Shown here in pieces: positions 15,469-63,904 of a stretch of 63,904 bases of DNA. The translations under genes were made by a program, and so were the position numbers. The notes under the pieces were generated by a model. It saw nothing but the letters and a program-made list of their open reading frames with translations, ran no database searches and was not told the origin of the DNA. Positions within the stretch are counted from its first letter, which is position 1, and each line of letters starts with the position of its first letter. This DNA is from an uncultured Rickettsiales bacterium. GTDB taxonomy: Bacteria > Pseudomonadota > Alphaproteobacteria > Rickettsiales > JABDBP01. The DNA is taken from NCBI GenBank assembly GCA_964450945.1, contig CAYVHI010000001.1:1-63904 (forward strand), given 5' to 3'.

Positions 15469-16629
15469 ATGAAACCAACAGCAAAACCAAAGAACCCATG
15501 TTTCTCATCCGGCCCATGTGCAAAGCGCCCGGGCTGGAGCATTGATGCATTAAAATCAGCGGCCACCGGTCTTTCCCACCGTGGCAAAACCGGCAAGGCA
15601 AAACTTGCCGAAGTTATAGATTTATCTAAAAAAATATTAGGAATTCCTTCGGATTACCATTTAGGAATCGTACCTGCATCTGATACCGGAGCGGTTGAAA
15701 TGGCTATGTGGAACCTGCTTGGTGAACGCGGCGTTGATATTGTTGCGTTTGAATCTTTTGGTTCTGGCTGGGCTGGCGATGCAGAGAAACAATTAAAAAT
15801 AAAAGATTTAAAAGTTCATAAAGCGGATTACGGAAAACTGCCTGATTTATCAAAAGTTGATACAAACCGTGATGTGGTTTTCACATGGAACGGCACCACA
15901 TCAGGCGTTCGTATACCAAATGCTGATTGGATAAAAGATGACAGGCAGGGTTTAACCATATGCGATGCGACATCCGCGGTTTTCGCCATGGAACTTCCAT
16001 GGAAAAAACTGGATGTGGTTACCTATTCATGGCAGAAGGCGATGGGCGGTGAAGCCGCTCACGGCATTTTAATTTTATCTCCGCGCGCAGTACAACGCTT
16101 GGAAACATACAAGCCGGCATGGCCACTACCAAAGATTTTCCAGCTTACCAAAGGCGGAAAATTAATTGATGGAATTTTTAAAGGTGAAACCATAAACACT
16201 CCTTCAATGCTTTGCGTTGAAGATGCTATTGATGGCCTGAAATGGGCTGAAAAAATCGGTGGCCAGAAAGAGCTCATCCGCCGCAGCGAAGCAAACCTTA
16301 AAGTACTTTCTGACTGGGTGGCAAAATCCTCATGGATAAAATTTTTGGCAGAGGACCCGAAAACAATTTCATGCACATCAGTATGCTTCAAGATTGTTGA
16401 TGGGTGGTATACATCTTTAGGTGTTGAAGATCAGGCTGCCAAGGCAAAAGAGCTTACATCAATCCTAGAGAAAGAAGGTGTGGCTTATGATATCGGCGCT
16501 TACCGTGATGCGCCTCCCGGAATCCGCATCTGGGCCGGTTCAACTGTTGAAACTTCTGATGTTCAGGTACTCACTAGCTGGCTCGACTGGGCATTCACTC
16601 AGGTGAAAGATAAAGCGAAAGCGGCTTAA
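15469..16629 (+). CDS. serC: Phosphoserine aminotransferase
   Basis: [48 protein letters not shown]. Confidence 0.96.
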
Positions 16630-16732
16630 AACTTAAGAATATCCTTATAAATCAATATATTATATTTAGTATACTGTAATAAACCTGTAATCTTAGTGGG
16701 TTATAATGATAAGTACATCATACCCCAAAGGT

Positions 16733-16837
16733 TATAGAACAATACAGTTCTGAAAAAAAACACTGCAACAAGTTATGCCGAAAGGCTAAAAGGCTTTAAG
16801 AGCCTCTTGTAAAGCAGATGAACTGTAATGTTCTATA
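16733..16837 (+). ncRNA. Structured 5' leader of cassette 1
   Basis: Arms tatagaacaatacagttc / gaactgtaatgttctata enclose nested stems ctgc/gcag and acaag/cttgt plus hairpins gcc-gaaa-ggc and aggct-ttaag-agcct. Confidence 0.55.
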
Positions 16838-16865
16838 TACCCTCCGGAAAAAAAGGAGGTGTATG

Positions 16866-17315
16866 ATGGCCCGCAAGAAGAAGGAAAAACCTGACCGGAA
16901 GCCAGACCCAAAGCCAGAGGCGCTGCCGCCACCCGAAGAAATCAAGGTGAAAATCAAATCGAAGATGACAGGCAACATCTTCGGTGAGACGCCGGTCTAC
17001 AAATGGCCGGAGAAGCCTGAGAACTGGCGGATGGATTGGCCGCCAGAGCGCCAAAAGGTCGACATGGCAACAGAGTTCCTTACCTTTGAACTCGTCGGCC
17101 TGCCAGAAGGTGTTCGCGGTGAAGGGGCAGCCAACTGGTTCAAACTGAAGGGAAAGGTTAATAAACCCTTCACGCTGGTGGTGATTAGGCTCGGTCAGTC
17201 ACCAAACTGCGGAGAGGTGCTGTTAGAGAAAAAGTTCGAGGTCGGTAACATCGAATTCAAGCACTCTTTCTCCTACGCCATGCAACTGCTAGAGATCACC
17301 TATACCTTCGCCTAA
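16866..17315 (+). CDS. Cassette ORF, hypothetical (149 aa)
   Basis: Preceded by aggaggtgtatgATG and followed by a hairpin at 17337..17372. Confidence 0.7.
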   Translation: MARKKKEKPDRKPDPKPEALPPPEEIKVKIKSKMTGNIFGETPVYKWPEKPENWRMDWPPERQKVDMATEFLTFELVGLPEGVRGEGAANWFKLKGKVNKPFTLVVIRLGQSPNCGEVLLEKKFEVGNIEFKHSFSYAMQLLEITYTFA

Positions 17316-17413
17316 GGTGTAAGTGAAAAACCAACCGACCTCCCACACTAAAGCCAATAGTGTGGGAAGGCCGGGCGGTAAATTCAGAAAATCTCCCATA
17401 AAACCCCCTACAT

Positions 17414-17429
17414 TTAACAAAACCTTAAC
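17414..17429 (+). promoter_or_regulatory. CtrA-type box of cassette 2
   Basis: ttaacaaaaccttaac, with a -10-like tattat 22 nt downstream. Confidence 0.6.
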
Positions 17430-17482
17430 ACTATATCTCCCTAATTTTTGGTATTATTCAGGCTCGCCCTACCATTTCAACT

Positions 17483-17627
17483 GGTTACAGAACTTTAAAT
17501 TTTGTTCTTTTCATCTCAAACATAGCTGGCCATCGGCCATAGCAACAAACCACGGCTTAAACATTGCCCTAGGTTTTGCGTCGCTATGATTTTTGAGTAA
17601 AAGAACAAAATTTAAAGTTCTGTGACC
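17483..17627 (+). ncRNA. Structured 5' leader of cassette 2
   Basis: 29-bp closing stem ggttacagaactttaaattttgttctttt / aaaagaacaaaatttaaagttctgtgacc (one G-U pair); inner catagc/gctatg multibranch. Confidence 0.65.
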
Positions 17628-17646
17628 CAAGCTGGGAGTCAGTTCG

Positions 17647-17949
17647 ATGACCGAGATCAAGGACATCTTCGTGGGCTGGGTCGGCGGGTCTGTGGCCTTC
17701 AGCCACCACGGCAAGAGCGGTACCTACACCGCGACCGCGACGTACTACGACGGCGGCGAGATGAAGCACACGTGGGTGGGCAAGGACGAGAAGTCCCCCC
17801 ACCAGCAGCACTGCTTCCCGATGTACCGTCCGCTCGGCAACGAGAAGCCGGGCGAGCCGAACCTCGGCGGCGGCATCGTCAGCGTCAAGGTGACGGACGA
17901 GGCCGGGGTGGTGGTCCTCGAGTTCGACGCGACGAAGAGCGGCATCTGA
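17647..17949 (+). CDS. Cassette ORF, hypothetical beta-rich protein (100 aa)
   Basis: Codons almost all end in G/C; nested terminator at 17963..18013. Confidence 0.75.
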   Translation: MTEIKDIFVGWVGGSVAFSHHGKSGTYTATATYYDGGEMKHTWVGKDEKSPHQQHCFPMYRPLGNEKPGEPNLGGGIVSVKVTDEAGVVVLEFDATKSGI

Positions 17950-18042
17950 TCTGAATGAACGATAACCCCGTCTGTACAAGCTTCCATAGTAAGGAAGAAG
18001 TACAGCGGGGTTAGGCGTTTTAAAGCCCTGCATCTCCTACAT

Positions 18043-18087
18043 TTCATAAAACCTTAACTTTATTAAAACCCCTAGATTTGCTATAAT
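18043..18087 (+). promoter_or_regulatory. CtrA-like box plus -10 of cassette 3
   Basis: ttcataaaaccttaac followed 23 nt later by tataat (gctataat). Confidence 0.55.
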
Positions 18088-18203
18088 TTCCGCTTCAATC
18101 ACATTGCAGGATGCAAGTGTAAGCCTGGCGGGAAAATAGGCACCCACCAGTTCCCTATAGTTTTGTGTAACTTTGAGTTCGCCCTGAAAGAGAAGGTGTT
18201 TCA

Positions 18204-18431
18204 GTGAAGGTCGAAAGGAAGTTCAGTGTCACCGTCACGTACGATGACACCAGCGAAACGGCCCACGTCACGGGCTACCACACCAAGCCGTTCTGTGTCG
18301 CCATCATGAAGGGCCGCGCTAACCTGGCCACCAAGCGCTACCCCGCCAACCAGAACCACGATGACTACTTCAAGGTCGAGACGGCCCCGAAGGAGTCGGA
18401 GATCACCATCGTGATCTACGAATCCAGGTAG
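18204..18431 (+). CDS. Cassette ORF, hypothetical (75 aa)
   Basis: GTG start after agaaggtg; GC-rich codons; strong hairpin at 18436..18483. Confidence 0.7.
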   Translation: MKVERKFSVTVTYDDTSETAHVTGYHTKPFCVAIMKGRANLATKRYPANQNHDDYFKVETAPKESEITIVIYESR

Positions 18432-18484
18432 TCAATCTACCGGCTTCCTGCTGCCAAGCCTTAAGGCAGCAGGGGCCGGTGGAT

Positions 18485-18559
18485 TTAACAAAACCTTAAC
18501 ACTAAAAAACCCTAAAATACTATATAATCTGCGGTTCATCGTACCCTCGGGTTATAGAA
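18485..18559 (+). promoter_or_regulatory. CtrA box, -10 and leader start of cassette 4 (repeat copy 1)
   Basis: ttaacaaaaccttaac...tataat; 18496..18559 is identical to 19100..19163 (64 bp). Confidence 0.7.
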
Positions 18560-18670
18560 GTCTTTCTTCTTTCAAAATCACATCATGAGCAAGCCTAGCA
18601 AAGGTTGCCTGGAATGTGTTGAAGAACAGATTATCTATAAGCCCGCGAAGAGAAAGTCAGGAGGTGTATG

Positions 18671-19006
18671 ATGGAACTGTTCAACGGGCACGGCATCATG
18701 GTGACCGACAATGGCAAGAACATCGTCATCAAGGTCACCGGCAGCACCGCCAAGGTGGCGATCACCCCGCAGTTCATCGGCTACTACGTCGATGAGCCGC
18801 CACGGGCGATCATGATGCCCAAGTGCCAGCCCGTCACCGTTACCGGGAACGACATCGGAACGCTCACCGTCATCCTGCCCAAGGTCAGGGTGGAGACGGT
18901 CATCGGCACGGACGATGGCAAGAAGTCGGTCCGCCCGGTGATGACGGCCCTGATGCTGGAGATGCCGCAGGAAACCAAGTACTTGAGCATCGAGGAAGAC
19001 AACTAA
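18671..19006 (+). CDS. Cassette ORF, hypothetical beta-rich protein
   Basis: aggaggtgtatgATG; GC-rich codons; terminator at 19019..19064. Confidence 0.75.
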   Translation: MELFNGHGIMVTDNGKNIVIKVTGSTAKVAITPQFIGYYVDEPPRAIMMPKCQPVTVTGNDIGTLTVILPKVRVETVIGTDDGKKSVRPVMTALMLEMPQETKYLSIEEDN

Positions 19007-19088
19007 GCAGTAAATGATAACCCCCTTTCATACCTTCGTAGGTATGTCGCCTCAGGGGGTTTTTCATTTTAAAAAACTCCCTGCCCTT

Positions 19089-19163
19089 TTAACAAAACTT
19101 TAACACTAAAAAACCCTAAAATACTATATAATCTGCGGTTCATCGTACCCTCGGGTTATAGAA
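19089..19163 (+). promoter_or_regulatory. CtrA box, -10 and leader start of cassette 5 (repeat copy 2)
   Basis: ttaacaaaactttaac plus the 64-bp block identical to cassette 4. Confidence 0.7.
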
Positions 19164-19275
19164 CCACCGTTCTCCAAAACATACCACACTGTGCTACATA
19201 ACTTCGTGAGTTATGGCTGAAGTGTCGGTTGGAGGCGACCTCTATACCTGTGAAAAGAGAGTTAGGAGGTGTATG

Positions 19276-19605
19276 ATGAAGCTGCGCTACGAGATGCCCG
19301 TCGAGCACCTGAGCTACAGCGTCGAGATCGAGGCGAAGAGGGTGAGCGACTGGGTGGACGAGATCATCGTCACCATCGACTGCAGCAAGAGCGCGCAGGA
19401 CGTGTGGGTGCGGATCAGGATCCTCGGCGACGGCGTGGCCACGGTCTACTGCCGGGGTCACCAGAGCACCCGCAAGGTCCTGACCCTGGACAGCTTCAAC
19501 GACAACAGCAGCACGCCGCTCATCATCGGCGGCACGATCATCATCAAGGAGATGGAGATCGAGGAGACGAGCGGTGAGATCTTCAGGATGGAGTACAAGT
19601 ACTAG
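19276..19605 (+). CDS. Cassette ORF, hypothetical beta-rich protein (109 aa)
   Basis: aggaggtgtatgATG; GC-rich codons; terminator at 19617..19665. Confidence 0.75.
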   Translation: MKLRYEMPVEHLSYSVEIEAKRVSDWVDEIIVTIDCSKSAQDVWVRIRILGDGVATVYCRGHQSTRKVLTLDSFNDNSSTPLIIGGTIIIKEMEIEETSGEIFRMEYKY

Positions 19606-19616
19606 TAGAAAATAAG

Positions 19617-19665
19617 AACCCCCCTATTACACCGCGCAAGGTGTATCGCCCAAGGGGGGTTTTTT
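19617..19665 (+). terminator. Intrinsic terminator with bulged inner hairpin
   Basis: aacccccc..tacacc-loop-ggtgta-tcgcc..ggggggtttttt; homologous to 19019..19064. Confidence 0.7.
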
Positions 19666-19701: not shown

Positions 19702-19745
19702 CTGTCATAAAACGTACTTAAAAAGGTCATAATTCCGTCATAAAA
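19702..19745 (+). promoter_or_regulatory. Pho-box-like direct repeats
   Basis: GTCAT at 19704, 19726 and 19737 (11-bp phasing); the first reads CTGTCATAAAA. Confidence 0.45.
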
Positions 19746-19795
19746 TAATGCTACATTTTAGTATCATATACTAAGATTAAGGGAGTAATGAAGTT

Positions 19796-20257
19796 ATGTG
19801 GAGACCAGATACATTAGGATTAATAAATCGTTTTACCAGCGGAAAAATCATTGAGGATTTTAAGGAAGCATTCGAAGGACTTTCAGTAATGTTTTCGAAT
19901 TTATTTGGCGGTGGCCAGGATAAGCAAGCTCAAGGCCATGGAGATGTCAGCCCTTCCACAGCACCTAACCGTTCTGGTGGAAGAGGTCAGCAGGTTGATA
20001 GCGAGGGTTATGCTTTGAATAAGGATGGTACTCACGTAGTAGAAATAGTTGGTGATAATAGCTACACTGTAAGCAGTTATAAGGATGGAAAAGGCAACTC
20101 TATAAGCAAGGGTCAATTTGATAGGATTATAGAAGAAGCCAGGGAAAGAGCGGGTCCAATCCAAGGAACATATAGGGGTGGTGATGAGAAAGGTACCACA
20201 GTAAAAGCCGCCGCTTCTCCCGGTGAAGCAAAATCAGGCCATCGTCAAGTTTCTTAA
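19796..20257 (+). CDS. Hypothetical protein
   Basis: 153 aa ORF with host-like composition, RBS gggag upstream. Confidence 0.6.
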   Translation: MWRPDTLGLINRFTSGKIIEDFKEAFEGLSVMFSNLFGGGQDKQAQGHGDVSPSTAPNRSGGRGQQVDSEGYALNKDGTHVVEIVGDNSYTVSSYKDGKGNSISKGQFDRIIEEARERAGPIQGTYRGGDEKGTTVKAAASPGEAKSGHRQVS

Positions 20258-20385: not shown

Positions 20386-21963
20386 ATGCCTAAAGTATTG
20401 ATTTCAGATAAGCTAAGCCAGCAGGCTGTAGATATATTTAAAAAGAACAAGGTCGATGTTGATGTAAAAACCGGCCTCTCTGAAGATGAGCTGATTAAAA
20501 TCATCGGCGAATATGATGGCCTTGCCATCCGCTCTGCAACAAAGGTTACCAAAAAGGTACTTGAAGCTGCCAAAAAATTAAAAGTTGTCGGCCGCGCCGG
20601 TATTGGTGTTGATAACGTGGATATCCCTGCTGCAACAGCGGCGGGCATAATCGTAATGAACACACCTTTTGGCAACTCCATAACTACTGCTGAACATTCA
20701 ATCGCGCTTATGATGTCACTCGCGCGTGAGATTCCTGCTGCTAATACTTCTACTCAGGCTGGCAAGTGGGAGAAAAATAAATTCATGGGTGTTGAGCTTT
20801 ATTCAAAAACCCTTGGTCTCATTGGTTGCGGCAATATAGGCTCTATAGTTGCTGACCGCGCTCAGGGGCTAAAAATGAAAGTCGTTGTGTATGATCCGTT
20901 CTTAACGCCGGAGCGCGCAAAAGACATAAACGTTGAAAAAGTTGAGCTTGATGATCTGTTAAAACGCGCGGATTTCATATCTCTCCACACACCACTCAAT
21001 GAACAGACAAAAAATATTTTGAATAAACAATCGCTGGCAAAATGCAAGAAAGGTGTTCGCATTGTTAACTGCGCACGCGGCGGCCTGGTTGATGAAAATG
21101 CCCTCAAGGAAGCAATTGATTCCGGCCATGTTGCGGGTGCGGCGTTTGACGTATTCACCGAAGAACCGGCAAAAACAAATCCGCTTTTCGGTTCGGAAAA
21201 AACCGTGTGCACACCGCATCTTGGCGCTTCAACATCTGAAGCTCAGGAGAATGTGGCGCTCCAGGTTGCTGAACAGATTTCAGAATACTTAACAACTGGC
21301 ACAGTAACCAACGCAATCAATATGCCTTCGGTCTCCGCTGAGGATGCAGCGAAGTTAAAACCATACCTGCAGCTTGCGGATCAGCTTGGCAGCTTCGCCG
21401 GCCAGCTCACAGAGAGCGCAATAAAAGCAATCAAGATTGAATATGAAGGTTCGGTTGCGGAACTTAACACAAGGCCGATCACCGCGGTTCTTGTTAAAGG
21501 GCTTCTCACTCCGCTGGTTGAAGGTGTGAATATGGTGAACGCTCCTGTTGTTGCCAAGGAGCGCAATATAAAGATCAGTGAAGTTAAAAATGAAGAGTGT
21601 GATGATTATCAAACAATCATCCGCTTAACAGTCACAACAGAAAAGCGTGACCGTACAATCACCGGAACACTTTTCGGCGGCACAAAACCACGTATCGTGG
21701 AAGTCGGCGGCATCAAGCTTGAAGCTGGTTTAGGGCCACGCATGCTTTATGTTAATAATGAAGATAAACCGGGTTTAATCGGCAATCTTGGAAAACTTCT
21801 TGGTGATGCTGGTGTTAATATCGCGAACTTCAATCTGGGGCGTAACGATGCCAAGAATGATGCGATAGCGTTACTTGAAATCGATCAGGAAATTTCCAAG
21901 GATGTCTGTGAAAAGATCGGCAAGCTGCCAAGCGTTAAACAAGTTAAGGTGATGAAGTTTTAA
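20386..21963 (+). CDS. serA: D-3-phosphoglycerate dehydrogenase
   Basis: GRAGIGVDNVD, NTPFGNSITTAEH, GCGNIG, TPHLGAST.EAQ, C-terminal ACT domain (D.PGLIG). Confidence 0.97.
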   Translation: MPKVLISDKLSQQAVDIFKKNKVDVDVKTGLSEDELIKIIGEYDGLAIRSATKVTKKVLEAAKKLKVVGRAGIGVDNVDIPAATAAGIIVMNTPFGNSITTAEHSIALMMSLAREIPAANTSTQAGKWEKNKFMGVELYSKTLGLIGCGNIGSIVADRAQGLKMKVVVYDPFLTPERAKDINVEKVELDDLLKRADFISLHTPLNEQTKNILNKQSLAKCKKGVRIVNCARGGLVDENALKEAIDSGHVAGAAFDVFTEEPAKTNPLFGSEKTVCTPHLGASTSEAQENVALQVAEQISEYLTTGTVTNAINMPSVSAEDAAKLKPYLQLADQLGSFAGQLTESAIKAIKIEYEGSVAELNTRPITAVLVKGLLTPLVEGVNMVNAPVVAKERNIKISEVKNEECDDYQTIIRLTVTTEKRDRTITGTLFGGTKPRIVEVGGIKLEAGLGPRMLYVNNEDKPGLIGNLGKLLGDAGVNIANFNLGRNDAKNDAIALLEIDQEISKDVCEKIGKLPSVKQVKVMKF

Positions 21964-62276: not shown

Positions 62277-62384
62277 GATTAAAACTCCCCCCCTCCTTTA
62301 AAAAAGAAAACCGCCGGACGGGGCGGCGGTTTCTTGTCGAGGTTAATTTTACCAGCTAGGCTCGCTGGTCCTTTTTCGGCTTAA

Positions 62385-62519
62385 TCAGCCGAAAAAACGG
62401 TAGATTTCTTCAGCTTTCGCAGGGAGTGGAACCGGGAACTTTGCCTTTCGCCGAAGTTTCGGCGGCGGGCAGTTTTCCGGTGACACCCACGGCGTTCTTA
62501 GGCCCATTTTCTTGGCCAT
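62385..62519 (-). CDS. Cassette ORF, 44 aa basic Pro-rich peptide
   Basis: gaaaggaggatagctacaATG; MAKKMGLRTPWVSPENCPPPKLRRKAKFPVPLPAKAEEIYRFFG; promoter box 62635..62650; terminator aaaccgccg..cggcggttt. Confidence 0.5.
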   Translation of the reverse strand: MAKKMGLRTPWVSPENCPPPKLRRKAKFPVPLPAKAEEIYRFFG

Positions 62520-62717
62520 TGTAGCTATCCTCCTTTCTTGGGCGATATGCTTAAGACTTTTTAGGGCCCGTCACCCTAAAAAGTCGAAAGTCCAAACTGA
62601 ACTTAACTGAACGTTTCAGTTATACACCTAAATTGTTAAAATTTTATGAATGGAGAATTTTTTTTGACTTTAAACGGTTCGGGGCCCCACTCCTTTAGAG
62701 AGGGGGCCCCGATGTTT

Positions 62718-62972
62718 TTATACTGGTTGTTTATCCTCTGGCCAGTATGCCAGGTAGCCTCGGCTTCGTTTGGTCATCACCATGACGCAGGTGATGATTT
62801 TCTCAGAATTCCCGCCTGTCGCTTCAATCACGTCGTCGAATCCCTCGCAGGTTCCGTCATCATATTGGATGATGACATCGATTCCTGTGATTGTCAGATC
62901 AAGCAACTTGACACTGGCTTCGTGCTTGTCACTGCTGACGTTGATTGCGACGCTCTTGGTAGCCTTCGTCAT
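62718..62972 (-). CDS. Cassette ORF, small beta-rich family 1
   Basis: aggaggtgtgtgATG; ends IITCVMVM...YLAYWPED; terminator cggggcccc..ggggccccg. Confidence 0.7.
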   Translation of the reverse strand: MTKATKSVAINVSSDKHEASVKLLDLTITGIDVIIQYDDGTCEGFDDVIEATGGNSEKIITCVMVMTKRSRGYLAYWPEDKQPV

Positions 62973-63136
62973 CACACACCTCCTTCTTGATCATGAGTTT
63001 CAGATCAGTGTGGTTCTAACTTGCTACGGGCACTTTGGCCTACTAAGCAAGTAATTTATGAAGAACCAAACTTCTGTTCTGTAACCCAGTGGGTAGTGTG
63101 AACCCAGAATTATATAGGAAATATACTGGTTTTAGT

Positions 63137-63152
63137 GTTAAAGATTTATTAA
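63137..63152. promoter_or_regulatory. CtrA-type box shared by divergent genes
   Basis: Minus strand ttaataaatctttaac, with tataat 22 nt downstream, then ctgggttcacactacccactgggttacagaac (motif A). Confidence 0.6.
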
Positions 63153-63162
63153 ACTATTCCTT

Positions 63163-63771: not shown

Positions 63772-63904
63772 CGTGGGAGTGGTTGGGCGAAGCCCAGAGC
63801 GACCCGGAAAATTATAAAACTTCGTGGGAGTGGTTGGGCGAAGCCCAGAGCGACCCGGAAAATTATAAAACTTCGTGGGAGTGGTTGGGCGAAGCCCAGA
63901 GCGA
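63772..63904 (+). repeat. 51-bp tandem repeat (two full copies plus a partial third), truncated at the window end
   Basis: cgtgggagtggttgggcgaagcccagagcgacccggaaaattataaaactt at 63772, 63823 and 63874. Confidence 0.92.

What the first reader, a model, noticed from the sequence alone, without database searches (positions are those of the whole stretch)
16690..19665. Five tandem cassettes splitting the serC-serA pair
Seen: five same-strand units (ORFs 16866, 17647, 18204, 18671, 19276), each with its own promoter, leader and terminator. Units 4 and 5 share an identical 64-bp promoter block, then diverge abruptly after ggttatagaa. Established: serC and serA are commonly adjacent in alphaproteobacteria. 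Inference: serial insertion or duplication at a hotspot, with a possible junction near ...tcgggttatagaa.
Basis: partly seen in the sequence, partly recalled or inferred. Interest (0 to 1): 0.75.

Follow-up and report, generated by a model that had tools for sequence, protein, structure and literature searches.

The report
Locked, recoded orphan mini-gene cassette array
Between two serine-synthesis genes that sit side by side in related bacteria, this uncultured alphaproteobacterium carries a row of self-contained mini-genes for proteins found nowhere else; they share regulator-dependent promoters and a folded RNA leader that hides the ribosome-binding site, and their silent codon positions are almost all G or C in an otherwise A/T-rich genome.

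Summary
Five same-strand units lie between serC and serA. Each has a -10 box preceded by a phased direct-repeat box, a 110-183 nt leader, a Shine-Dalgarno site (SD, the ribosome-binding sequence), a small ORF and a strong 3' hairpin. Units 4 and 5 share a 76-nt block (64 nt identical) that ends abruptly at GGTTATAGAA.

In 8 of 11 order-level relatives serC and serA are 40-620 nt apart. The nearest relative has an unrelated 3.5-kb insert at the same site. So this is a lineage-specific insertion at a variable site, not a serial duplication of whole units: ORFs, inner leaders and 3' hairpins are all unique.

The units belong to a genome-wide family of roughly 30 or more cassettes. The shared block is a regulatory module:
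- a perfect CtrA-type box (TTAA-N7-TTAAC);
- a -10 box;
- a 5'-terminal segment that co-varies with, and pairs to, the SD and start codon.

The four proteins searched have no relatives in 5.8 billion sequences. Units 2-5 have GC3 0.89-0.98 against a genome GC3 of 0.37, yet a low-GC type amino-acid make-up, so a simple import from a high-GC donor fits poorly.

Best reading: regulator-driven, translationally locked, stable mRNAs for orphan proteins. Protein function and the reason for the recoding are unknown.

The parts
15469..16629 (+). serC (phosphoserine aminotransferase), upstream flank
Evidence: 66-81% identical to the gene directly upstream of serA in relatives.
16675..16707 (+). Unit 1 promoter: direct repeat TGTAAT-N5-TGTAAT (11-bp period), 10 nt, then TATAAT (16702-16707). 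Pho-box-like spacing.
   Evidence: Read from the sequence. 15 of 18 matches to the E. coli Pho box consensus (own knowledge).
16713..16865 (+). Unit 1 leader: 5' segment CATCATACC pairs with the SD and start codon. Closing stem P1 is 16730-16750 / 16820-16841. SD is 16854-16859.
   Evidence: Inverted repeat I3. Minimum-free-energy fold. P(initiation region pairs with the first 20 nt) = 0.47. Weak covariance-model hit.
16866..17315 (+). Unit 1 ORF, 149 aa orphan (Lys/Pro-rich N-terminus, beta-rich C-terminus). GC1/2/3 = 0.55/0.36/0.68.
   Evidence: Only itself found among 5.8 billion proteins. No Pfam, PHROG, PADLOC or PDB match.
17330..17379 (+). Unit 1 3' hairpin, no U-tract
   Evidence: -31.7 kcal/mol, z -5.4
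17414..17457 (+). Unit 2 promoter: perfect CtrA-type box TTAACAAAACCTTAAC (17414-17429), 22 nt, then TGgTATTAT (extended -10)
17464..17646 (+). Unit 2 leader: 38-nt arms 17483-17520 / 17590-17627 form a near-perfect long stem that starts with GGTTACAGAAC. SD is 17634-17638.
   Evidence: Inverted repeat I1, 87% complementary. Fold -72.5 kcal/mol.
17647..17949 (+). Unit 2 ORF, 100 aa orphan. GC1/2/3 = 0.58/0.43/0.97.
   Evidence: Only itself among 5.8 billion proteins.
17957..18019 (+). Unit 2 3' hairpin followed by GTTTTAAAG
   Evidence: -32.8 kcal/mol, z -4.9
18043..18087 (+). Unit 3 promoter: box TTCATAAAACCTTAAC (one mismatch to the CtrA box), 23 nt, then TGcTATAAT
18094..18203 (+). Unit 3 leader, a different type: no 5'-end pairing. 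A local hairpin CTGAAA/TTTCAG brackets the SD.
   Evidence: Fold. P(pairing with the 5' end) = 0.01. Unique in the genome.
18204..18431 (+). Unit 3 ORF, 75 aa, GTG start. GC1/2/3 = 0.48/0.39/0.89.
   Evidence: No family hit.
18434..18485 (+). Unit 3 3' hairpin. It abuts the next box and has a weak U-tract.
   Evidence: -38.9 kcal/mol, z -7.1
18484..18559 (+). Unit 4 copy of the shared 76-nt module: CtrA-type box 18485-18500, TATAAT 18523-18528, 5' anti-initiation-region segment CATCGTACCCTC 18537-18548, and P1 arm GGTTATAGAA 18550-18559
   Evidence: Direct repeat D2, 99% identical. Pairwise alignment.
18535..18670 (+). Unit 4 leader. The inner part, 18560-18650, is unique. SD AGGAGG is 18659-18664.
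   Evidence: The fold pairs the first ~14 nt with GGAGGUGUAUGAUG. P = 0.66.
18671..19006 (+). Unit 4 ORF, 111 aa orphan. GC1/2/3 = 0.52/0.36/0.92.
   Evidence: AlphaFold2 single-sequence model is poor (pLDDT 43).
19012..19069 (+). Unit 4 intrinsic terminator (hairpin with a 3'-arm bulge, then UUUUU)
   Evidence: -24.7 kcal/mol, z -4.9
19088..19163 (+). Unit 5 copy of the shared 76-nt module (box 19089-19104, TATAAT 19127-19132, anti-initiation-region segment 19141-19152, P1 arm 19154-19163)
19139..19275 (+). Unit 5 leader. The inner part is unique. SD is 19264-19269.
   Evidence: (P = 0.58)
19276..19605 (+). Unit 5 ORF, 109 aa orphan, predicted all-beta. GC1/2/3 = 0.49/0.36/0.98.
   Evidence: Only itself among 1.84 billion representatives. 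AlphaFold2 pLDDT 61, pTM 0.58, eight strands. Only generic beta-sandwich fold matches, none at E<=0.001.
19614..19664 (+). Unit 5 intrinsic terminator (hairpin with a TCGCCCA bulge, then UUUUUU)
   Evidence: -26.6 kcal/mol, z -3.9
19702..20257 (+). Sixth unit: phased GTCAT half-sites (19704, 19726, 19737), 10 nt, TACATT, a short leader, and orf153 (19796-20257, 153 aa, GC3 0.30, orphan)
   Evidence: No hit in relatives' loci or in family libraries.
20386..21963 (+). serA (D-3-phosphoglycerate dehydrogenase), downstream flank
   Evidence: Pfam PF02826, PF19304, PF00389 and ACT. 68-79% identical in most relatives of the order.

Best explanation
WHAT IT IS. The serC-serA gap holds an array of six autonomous expression cassettes. 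Five have G/C-ending codons; the sixth, orf153, has native codon usage. They are one locus of a lineage-specific family of roughly 30 or more such cassettes scattered through this genome. That count is my tally from the lists of GC3-rich ORFs.

HOW A UNIT IS BUILT.
1. The promoter has no -35 hexamer. It has a -10 box, often an extended TGn form, and upstream of it a direct-repeat box with 11-bp period. This design is typical of activation by an OmpR/PhoB-family response regulator. Units 2-5 carry a CtrA-type box, TTAA-N7-TTAAC, about 22 nt upstream of the -10. Unit 1 and orf153 carry a Pho-box-like TGT(A/C)AT repeat 10 nt upstream.
2. The leader is 110-183 nt. In units 1, 2, 4 and 5 it is a long rod that opens with GGTTAYAGAAC. 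The first ~12 nt of the transcript base-pair with the Shine-Dalgarno site and start codon. The mRNA is therefore born with a paired 5' end and a hidden initiation site.
3. Each ORF encodes a small, signal-less, beta-rich protein with no relatives. Its silent codon positions are almost entirely G or C.
4. A strong 3' hairpin follows each ORF.

INFERRED MECHANISM.
- The cassettes are switched on together by a response regulator: CtrA most likely for units 2-5, with PhoB the alternative.
- They give long-lived but translationally silent transcripts.
- Translation needs an opening event. The leading candidate is RNase III cleavage of the long leader stem. A helicase, a small RNA or a protein are alternatives.

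ORIGIN.
- The array arose by insertion at a variable intergenic site.
- Its regulatory modules are kept alike by gene conversion or module exchange between neighbouring units, while the ORFs are unrelated.

SHOWN VERSUS INFERRED.
- Shown in silico: the anatomy, the synteny break, the orphan status, silent-site-only GC enrichment, 5'-end pairing with the initiation region and its co-variation, and the mosaic structure.
- Inferred: transcription start sites, regulator identity, the translational lock and its trigger, mRNA stability, and protein function.
For: ANATOMY AND REPEATS..

SYNTENY. serC and serA are adjacent in 8 of 11 relatives; the same-family genome has an unrelated insert.

GENOME-WIDE FAMILY.
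- Type-A leaders occur at C1 16.7-19.2 kb and 63-68.7 kb.
- GC3-rich small ORFs lie on many contigs, each behind a box, a -10 and a long leader.
- The composite motif TT[AC]A-N7-[TG]TAAC-N18-24-TAnAAT occurs 18 times against 2.2 in shuffles. Most copies lie upstream of a long leader and a GC3-rich ORF.

REGULATORS AND RNASE III ARE ENCODED.
- CtrA, 404.7 bits against a cut-off of 350, and PhoB, 346 against 296.
- RNase III.
- A single CtrA site at -35 is the usual design of CtrA-activated promoters (PMC11264516, abstract). TTAA-N7-TTAA is the conserved CtrA motif (PMC9437464).

LEADER LOCK.
- In 10 of 11 type-A leaders the minimum-free-energy fold pairs the 5' end with the SD and start codon.
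- Mean probability that the initiation region pairs with the first 20 nt is 0.50, against 0.085 in 200 native genes (p = 4e-7).
- The variable bases co-vary, for example CAT with ATG and CAC with GTG. Cognate pairings beat permuted ones (-7.1 against -5.3 kcal/mol, P = 0.002).
- The P1 stem co-varies, C-G in four leaders and U-A in four, and carries G-U pairs.

CODONS.
- Cassettes have GC1/2/3 of 0.58/0.40/0.87; native genes 0.52/0.37/0.37.
- Cassette proteins have Lys 8.5%, Arg 3.5%, Ala 7.2%.
- Real high-GC genes on contaminant contigs have GC1/2/3 of 0.62-0.69/0.41-0.52/0.84-0.93, with Lys 1-3% and Arg 7-8%.
- Highly expressed housekeeping genes have GC3 of 0.34-0.43.
- Only tRNA-Ala(UGC) and tRNA-Val(UAC) are present, so GCC and GTC are poorly matched codons.

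ORPHAN STATUS..

3' HAIRPINS..

NOT AN ASSEMBLY ARTEFACT..
Against: - There are no RNA data. Start sites, termination, the lock and expression itself are all predictions.
- Box identity is ambiguous. The box family grades from TTAAC to TTCAT, GTCAT and GTAAT half-sites and shows two spacings to the -10. Perfect TTAA-N7-TTAAC occurs 85 times in the genome.
- The conserved spacer (AAAAC) could reflect common descent of the promoters rather than binding needs.
- Unit 3 lacks the 5'-end lock, and unit 2 shows it only weakly.
- The cognate-versus-permuted difference is modest, because all leaders share the ACCC/GGAGG core.
- Evidence that the ORFs are selected for extra mRNA structure is weak: z -0.6 to -3.0 in the five units, mean -1.07 (p = 0.048) in 16 others, and not different from natives by rank test (p = 0.17).
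- No close relative is available, so gene conversion, rates of change and selection on silent sites cannot be measured.
- The function of the proteins is unknown.
Confidence: 0.55

Rival explanations
1. Recent horizontal import. The GC-rich ORFs came from high-GC donors, as moron-like units carried by a phage or an integrative element, and landed in an insertion hotspot. Their composition is simply that of the donor and has not yet drifted toward that of the host.
For: - GC3 of 0.89-0.98 against a genome GC3 of 0.37.
- The insert lies between genes that are adjacent in relatives.
- The proteins are orphans.
- GC3 across the family ranges from 0.23 to 0.98, as a series of imports of different ages would.
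- CtrA-regulated promoters are known in phages of Alphaproteobacteria (PMC9437464).
Against: - The compositional switch sits exactly at the start and stop codons, while promoters and leaders are host-like and shared between units.
- GC1, GC2 and the Lys/Arg/Ala content are of the low-GC type, unlike real high-GC genes in the same assembly.
- There is no homologue in 5.8 billion proteins, which include high-GC taxa.
- There are no PHROG hits and no phage or plasmid DNA matches.
- There is no integrase or transposase nearby.
- Roughly 30 or more units are spread over many loci.
Confidence: 0.2
2. Serial tandem duplication of one ancestral cassette. The ORFs, inner leaders and terminators then diverged very fast, beyond recognition, for example in an arms race. 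The regulatory ends stayed conserved or were homogenised.
For: - Box, 5' leader segment, P1 arm and SD-ATGATG are shared among units 1, 2, 4 and 5.
- Units 4 and 5 have inner leaders of equal length (75 and 76 nt) and similar terminator architecture.
- All the proteins are small and beta-rich.
Against: - No residual protein similarity by phmmer.
- Inner leaders and hairpins show no similarity to anything else in the genome.
- ORF lengths run from 75 to 149 aa.
- A 76-nt block at 99% identity next to unrelated sequence cannot come from uniform divergence.
Confidence: 0.12
3. An integron-like or other site-specific cassette-capture system, with GGTTAYAGAAC or the 3' hairpins acting as recombination sites.
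For: - A tandem same-strand array of small orphan ORFs, each followed by an imperfect hairpin.
- The hairpin of unit 2 is followed by GTTAGGC, which fits the GTTRRRY core.
- The break in identity falls abruptly at GGTTATAGAA.
Against: - There is no integron integrase. The genome has only two tyrosine recombinases of about 300 aa, neither near the array.
- The hairpins are all different, and those of units 4 and 5 carry U-tracts.
- Each unit has its own promoter.
- GGTTAYAGAAC pairs with a downstream arm, with G-U pairs and co-variation. It therefore acts at the RNA level.
Confidence: 0.03
4. Artefact: a chimeric assembly or binning error, or GC-rich non-coding DNA that happens to have open frames.
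For: - The genome is a 70-contig metagenome bin with at least two high-GC contaminant contigs.
- Unitigs break at the 64-nt repeat.
Against: - The same order, serC-u1-u2-u3, is seen in three other runs' assemblies.
- Unitigs are 100% identical across several runs, and single contigs link u4, u5, orf153 and serA.
- Three-base periodicity is strong (GC3 0.9 against GC2 0.38).
- An SD lies 6-8 nt before each start, and each ORF ends at its hairpin.
Confidence: 0.02

Closest known systems
Phage 'morons' (autonomous promoter-ORF-terminator units between conserved genes of lambdoid phages; own knowledge)
   Same: Each unit is self-contained, with promoter, ORF and terminator. The units sit between genes that are adjacent in relatives. 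Their base composition departs from the surroundings, and their cargo is an orphan of unknown function.
   Different: The array is not in a prophage: the flanks are serC and serA, and there are no PHROG hits and no phage DNA match. It belongs to a chromosome-wide family with shared regulatory modules. Only the silent codon positions deviate. The units carry long leaders that hide the ribosome-binding site.
CtrA-activated promoters of Alphaproteobacteria (single TTAA-N7-TTAAC site at -35; PMC11264516, PMC9437464)
   Same: Units 2, 4 and 5 have a perfect TTAA-N7-TTAAC box, and unit 3 has one mismatch. The box sits where a -35 hexamer would be, and there is none. CtrA is encoded in the genome.
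   Different: The distance to the -10 is about 22 nt. The spacer (AAAAC) and flanks are conserved far beyond the CtrA consensus. Related cassettes carry TTCAT, GTCAT or GTAAT half-sites or Pho-box spacing. Binding has not been tested.
Leaders that hide the initiation site through long-range pairing and need opening: the E. coli rpoS leader (opened by small RNAs), RNase III-activated messages (lambda and T7), ROSE/fourU RNA thermometers (own knowledge)
   Same: An upstream segment pairs with the SD and start codon. A long irregular stem lies between the two partners. RNase III is encoded in the genome.
   Different: The inhibitory segment is the very 5' end of the transcript. The helices (-11 to -17 kcal/mol, plus a 20-38 bp rod) are too strong for a thermometer. 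There is no Rfam match. The trigger is unknown.
5'-terminal stem-loops that stabilise mRNA against RNase E (ompA-type; own knowledge)
   Same: The predicted transcripts have 0-2 unpaired nucleotides at the 5' end, followed by a helix, and a strong 3' hairpin.
   Different: Here the 5' helix is formed with the initiation site itself. Stability has not been measured.
Integron gene-cassette arrays
   Same: A tandem, same-strand array of small orphan ORFs separated by imperfect hairpins at a variable locus.
   Different: There is no IntI and there are no attC sites. Every unit has its own promoter and leader.

Membership tests
Integron cassette array | Adjacent IntI-type tyrosine recombinase | tested here: not met
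   Pfam PF00589 finds only two tyrosine recombinases, of about 300 aa, at C25 and at C1 88 kb. None lies within 60 kb of the array. No such ORF lies within 5 kb either side.
Integron cassette array | attC sites of a common architecture after each ORF, and promoterless cassettes | tested here: not met
   The five hairpins are unrelated and unique. Those of units 4 and 5 end in U-tracts. Each unit has its own box plus -10.
Phage moron | Autonomous promoter + ORF + terminator inserted between genes that are adjacent in relatives | tested here: met
   The promoters are predicted only.
Phage moron | Located in a phage or prophage genome | tested here: not met
   The flanks are serC and serA. There are no PHROG hits and no match to 50,697 phage records.
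CtrA regulon promoter | TTAA-N7-TTAAC at about -35, and CtrA encoded in the genome | tested here: met
   Perfect box in units 2, 4 and 5; one mismatch in unit 3; absent in unit 1. CtrA scores 404.7 bits against a cut-off of 350.
CtrA regulon promoter | CtrA~P binding and CtrA-dependent transcription | not testable with these tools
   Needs gel-shift or ChIP assays and reporter assays.
Pho regulon promoter | An 18-bp Pho box (two 7-bp direct repeats, 11-bp period) 10 bp upstream of the -10, and PhoB encoded | tested here: inconclusive
   Unit 1: CTGTAATAAACCTGTAAT, 15 of 18 matches to the E. coli consensus, 10 nt to TATAAT. orf153: phased GTCAT half-sites, 10 nt to TACATT. PhoB scores 346 bits against 296. 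Units 2-5 do not fit.
Known structured RNA families (Rfam 15, including ROSE thermometers and riboswitches) | Match to a curated covariance model | tested here: not met
   No hit at gathering score in the whole window. Only a chance snoRNA-like hit at E = 0.04 in the region.
Leader that hides the initiation site (translational lock) | Upstream segment complementary to the SD and start codon, with co-variation | tested here: met
   0.50 against 0.085, p = 4e-7; P = 0.002. All in silico. Not met for unit 3.
Leader that hides the initiation site (translational lock) | Repression of translation that is relieved by disrupting the pairing | not testable with these tools
   Needs reporter fusions with disrupting and compensatory mutations.
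Type I toxin-antitoxin mRNAs (hok/tisB-like, also born translationally inert) | Small hydrophobic membrane toxin (<60 aa) with an antisense RNA | tested here: not met
   The products are 75-149 aa, polar and beta-rich, with no hydrophobic helix.
Genes imported from a high-GC donor | GC1, GC2 and amino-acid make-up shifted together with GC3; homologues in high-GC taxa | tested here: not met
   Cassettes: GC1/2/3 0.58/0.40/0.87, Lys 8.5%, Arg 3.5%. Real high-GC genes: 0.62-0.69/0.41-0.52/0.84-0.93, Lys 1-3%. No homologues.

The most novel reading that the evidence does not exclude
The cassettes define an undescribed, deliberately 'recoded' gene class. It is a regulon of orphan proteins whose mRNAs are built for storage:
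- the 5' end is clamped onto the ribosome-binding site;
- a 3' hairpin caps the message;
- A/U is purged from silent positions, so that the message survives AU-directed RNases or is read only in a particular cell state.

The ORFs are exchanged between conserved regulatory frames by recombination at the shared leader and SD segments. Earlier notes of this scan describe similar GC3-rich, leader-framed orphan cassettes in unrelated small-genome bacteria. The design may therefore be widespread and convergent.
Probability: 0.3. Interest if true: 0.85.

Novelty: new variant of a known kind. Interest (0 to 1): 0.7.

Why it matters
If the reading is right, this bacterium runs a separate expression channel for about 2% of its genes. 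The channel combines regulator-dependent promoters, messages that are made but kept silent, and a codon dialect that ignores both the genome's mutational bias and its tRNA supply.

That bears on three open questions:
- what maintains GC content at silent sites against AT-biased mutation;
- how orphan genes arise and acquire regulation;
- how CtrA-type developmental programmes are wired in uncultured, small-genome Alphaproteobacteria.

The locus is also a compact, testable model. A 76-nt module, a leader and a small ORF could be moved into Caulobacter or E. coli reporters.

Tried and rejected
LEADS THAT GAVE NOTHING
1. Rfam search of the whole window and of the region: nothing.
2. A covariance model (R1) built from six type-A leaders recovers only this genome's copies. 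It found none in 300 genomes (160 genera) of the same order. It is weak for the diverged leaders of units 4 and 5.
3. Pattern GTTCA-N2-5-TACCC-N2-5-GGTTAYAGAAC in 596 Gb of genomes and in JGI metagenomes: five hits each. Those inspected lie inside coding sequence, several in ECF sigma factor genes (LPxGYRT motif).
4. Homologue searches for units 1, 2, 4 and 5, and Pfam, PHROGs, PADLOC and PDB scans: only self-matches or nothing.
5. Structure prediction: unit 4 is unusable (pLDDT 43). Unit 5 is a low-confidence beta-sandwich with only generic fold matches.
6. The nearest relative, G001: 400 kb scanned for GC3-rich, SD-led small ORFs. None was found; its own GC3 is 0.53.
7. RNA-seq runs: none listed.
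8. Cassette-number polymorphism: only Logan contigs were available and no variant joint was seen. The higher depth of the unit 4 body is uninterpretable.

HYPOTHESES REJECTED OR LEFT OPEN
9. Translational selection as the cause of high GC3: rejected. Housekeeping genes have GC3 of 0.34-0.43, and the tRNA set does not favour GCC or GTC.
10. Selection for extra mRNA structure beyond GC content: inconclusive.
11. The TCGCCCA bulge motif as a genome-wide signal: not enriched.
12. Flanking direct repeats as target-site duplications: only a 14-of-18 AT-rich match (16665 and 19757), taken as chance.
13. Literature search for a described equivalent: none found.

Full report
1. THE OBSERVATION

The window is the first 63.9 kb of the largest contig (C1) of a 1.74-Mb, 70-contig, 41% GC genome. 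The DNA occurs in several biofilter metagenome runs from four studies.

serC (15469-16629) and serA (20386-21963) are 3,756 nt apart.

GC content rises to 0.55-0.67 inside each ORF and falls to 0.31-0.46 between them.

The shared motifs are far more frequent than in shuffled sequence.

Units 4 and 5 share 76 nt with one mismatch, of which 64 nt are identical. A pairwise alignment then drops to background straight after GGTTATAGAA. It recovers to 22/25 at the ribosome-binding site and is unrelated through the ORFs.

All five ORFs are followed by hairpins of -25 to -39 kcal/mol (z -3.9 to -7.1). Only units 4 and 5, and partly unit 2, have a U-tract.

A sixth same-strand unit, orf153, with native codon usage, fills the rest of the gap.

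2. SYNTENY

I searched 30 relatives with SerA and fetched the upstream DNA of eleven.
- serC lies 40-120 nt upstream of serA in six, and 440-620 nt upstream in two.
- It is not within 7 kb in two others.
- The only genome of the same family (SerA 79% identical) has a 3.5-kb gap. That gap holds a 608-aa ORF and a reverse-strand glycosyltransferase-like ORF, with no cassettes.

So the pair was ancestrally adjacent, and the site is variable in this family. The five genes are not an old conserved locus.

Other assemblies of the same population show serC-u1-u2-u3 in the same order. Unitigs are identical over the region. They break only at the 64-nt repeat, whose depth is about twice that of the flanks. 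No variant joint was seen, but raw reads were not available.

3. ONE LOCUS OF A GENOME-WIDE FAMILY

- The same box, leader start and ribosome-binding site recur at C1 62.3-68.7 kb on the minus strand, in at least nine units.
- Small ORFs with GC3 of 0.72-0.98 lie on many contigs. Native long ORFs have mean GC3 of 0.37, sd 0.08.
- Their upstream regions repeat the same plan: a direct-repeat box, a TATAAT-like -10, a leader of more than 100 nt, and a strong Shine-Dalgarno site. A hairpin follows the ORF, often with GTTTTAAAG after it.
- The composite motif TT[AC]A-N7-[TG]TAAC-N18-24-TAnAAT occurs 18 times against 2.2 in shuffles. Most copies lie upstream of a long leader and a GC3-rich ORF.
- Earlier notes of this scan describe such cassettes between cpaC and guaA, guaB and metE, and bolA and grxD in the same genome. 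I did not re-test those loci.

4. PROMOTERS

None of the five has a -35 hexamer.

Units 2, 4 and 5 carry TTAACAAAAC(C/T)TTAAC, a perfect CtrA box (TTAA-N7-TTAAC; PMC9437464). It lies about 22 nt upstream of the -10. Unit 3 has one mismatch. A single CtrA site at -35 is the usual layout of CtrA-activated promoters (PMC11264516).

Unit 1 has CTGTAATAAACCTGTAAT 10 nt upstream of TATAAT. orf153 has GTCAT half-sites in 11-bp phase 10 nt upstream of TACATT. Both are Pho-box-like in sequence and spacing (the consensus is from my own knowledge).

Across the family the boxes fall into two spacing classes, 9-10 nt and 20-23 nt. These differ by about one helical turn.

The genome encodes both CtrA and PhoB above the curated cut-offs.

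I conclude that the promoters depend on an OmpR/PhoB-family response regulator. CtrA is the better guess for units 2-5. This is inference.

5. LEADERS

Eleven leaders on C1 begin TTCAyC-TACCC-N3-4-GGGTTAyAGAAC. Folding each from the predicted start site gives a long rod.
- GGTTAYAGAAC pairs with GTTCTRTAACC just upstream of the Shine-Dalgarno site.
- The first ~12 nt of the transcript pair with the Shine-Dalgarno site and the start codon.

The evidence for the pairing is as follows.
- The closing stem co-varies, C-G in four leaders and U-A in four, and has G-U pairs, so it acts as RNA.
- The mean probability that the initiation region pairs with the first 20 nt is 0.50, against 0.085 in 200 native genes with SD sites (p = 4e-7).
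- The variable bases around the constant ACCC/GGAGG core co-vary. Examples are CATCGTAC with GTATGATG, CACAC with GTGTG, ATCACTT with AAGTGAT, and CAC with a GTG start.
- Cognate partners are better than permuted ones, P = 0.002.

Unit 2 has a 38-bp, 87% paired stem, a textbook RNase III substrate. RNase III is encoded.

Unit 3 has another leader type with a local hairpin around its ribosome-binding site.

No Rfam family matches. A covariance model of the leader finds nothing in 300 genomes of the order. A sequence pattern finds only chance hits in public genomes and metagenomes.

6. ORFS

The four proteins searched (units 1, 2, 4 and 5) match only themselves in 5.8 billion clustered proteins, or in 1.84 billion representatives read exhaustively. 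None of the five has a paralogue in the genome. There are no Pfam, PHROG, PADLOC or PDB matches, and no phage or plasmid DNA match.

Unit 5 folds, at low confidence, as an eight-stranded beta protein with only generic sandwich matches. Unit 4 does not fold from a single sequence.

The codon statistics are the strangest feature.

| Gene set | GC1 | GC2 | GC3 | Lys | Arg | Ala |
|---|---|---|---|---|---|---|
| Cassettes, pooled | 0.58 | 0.40 | 0.87 | 8.5% | 3.5% | 7.2% |
| Native long ORFs | 0.52 | 0.37 | 0.37 | 7.9% | 4.3% | 8.0% |
| Real high-GC genes (contaminant contigs) | 0.62-0.69 | 0.41-0.52 | 0.84-0.93 | 1-3% | 7-8% | 8-15% |

Sources: for the first two rows, for the third.

- So only the silent sites are G/C-rich.
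- Highly expressed housekeeping genes have GC3 of 0.34-0.43.
- The tRNA set has single Ala(UGC) and Val(UAC) genes, so the favoured GCC and GTC codons are poorly matched.
- Ordinary translational selection and simple import from a high-GC donor therefore both fit badly.
- The recoded ORFs fold more tightly per nucleotide than orf153: -0.31 to -0.44 against -0.25 kcal/mol per nt.
- They fold slightly more tightly than synonymous shuffles, but over the wider family this is inconclusive.

7. HOW THE ARRAY AROSE

Only the regulatory module is shared. Inner leaders and hairpins are unique in the genome. A 76-nt tract at 99% identity beside unrelated sequence indicates recent gene conversion or module exchange, not whole-unit duplication.

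There is no integron integrase. The two tyrosine recombinases are about 300 aa long and lie far from the array. I saw no attC-like common hairpin and no convincing target-site duplication. The mechanism of insertion remains unknown.

8. COMPARISON AND VERDICT

The units work like phage morons in being autonomous inserts between conserved genes, but they are not in a prophage. They work like rpoS-type or RNase III-activated leaders in hiding the initiation site, but with the transcript's own 5' end as the inhibitor.

I know of no described system that combines a response-regulator box, a lock between the 5' end and the initiation site, silent-site-only GC enrichment and orphan cargo in a chromosome-wide family. 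A literature search found none.

Earlier notes of this scan report comparable GC3-rich, leader-framed cassettes in unrelated small-genome bacteria. These are unchecked leads.

I rate the anatomy as solid, the regulatory model as plausible but untested, and the biological role as open.

Noticed in passing
window 19702-20257: orf153 is a sixth same-strand unit in the serC-serA gap, with native codon usage (GC3 0.30). GTCAT half-sites in 11-bp phase lie 10 nt upstream of TACATT, which is Pho-box-like. The leader is short and there is no strong hairpin before serA. The protein is an orphan.
   Followed up: partly
window 62300-63160 (- strand), continuing to C1 68.7 kb: A larger array, at least nine units, of the same cassette kind with the type-A leader. 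Identical terminator modules are reused between non-adjacent units, for example at C1 64.57 kb and 65.61 kb. A second leader type (ttcagttaagttcagtttggactttcgac...) occurs at 62.6 kb and 65.5 kb.
   Followed up: partly
window 63780-63904: Tandem copies of a ~51-nt unit (tcgctctgggcttcgcccaaccactcccacgaagttttataattttccggg) run into an assembly gap of Ns just beyond the window end.
   Followed up: no
genome contigs C65 and C69: Whole contigs at about 70% GC with ordinary high-GC genes (for example a methylmalonyl-CoA-mutase-like ORF). They are probably contaminants in the bin. I used them as an internal high-GC comparator.
   Followed up: partly
genome contig C10, 27-43 kb: A heavy-metal efflux and P-type ATPase island with GC3 of 0.55-0.66. 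It looks like an ordinary horizontally acquired island, in contrast to the cassettes.
   Followed up: no
window 18530-19129: The unit 4 body unitig has higher k-mer depth than its flanks in two runs: 16.8 against 11, and 14.3 against about 10. The repeat unitig has depth 30.6. This could be copy-number variation by recombination between the 76-nt repeats, or simply noise or GC bias.
   Followed up: partly
L013 4294-7824 (nearest relative, G001): The same serC-serA gap holds a 608-aa coiled-coil-like ORF and a reverse-strand 439-aa glycosyltransferase-like ORF, unrelated to the cassettes.
   Followed up: partly
window 19046-19053, 19643-19650; C1 64567, 65611, 62546: The 3' hairpins of units 4 and 5 and of two units of the second array share an unpaired TCGCC(C/T)(A/C)A bulge on the 3' arm. 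The same octamer lies just upstream of the SD in another leader type. It is not enriched genome-wide.
   Followed up: partly
whole genome: The terminator U-tracts of many cassettes are followed by a conserved GTTTTAAAG(G), for example at window 18029-18037. This may mark a module boundary.
   Followed up: no
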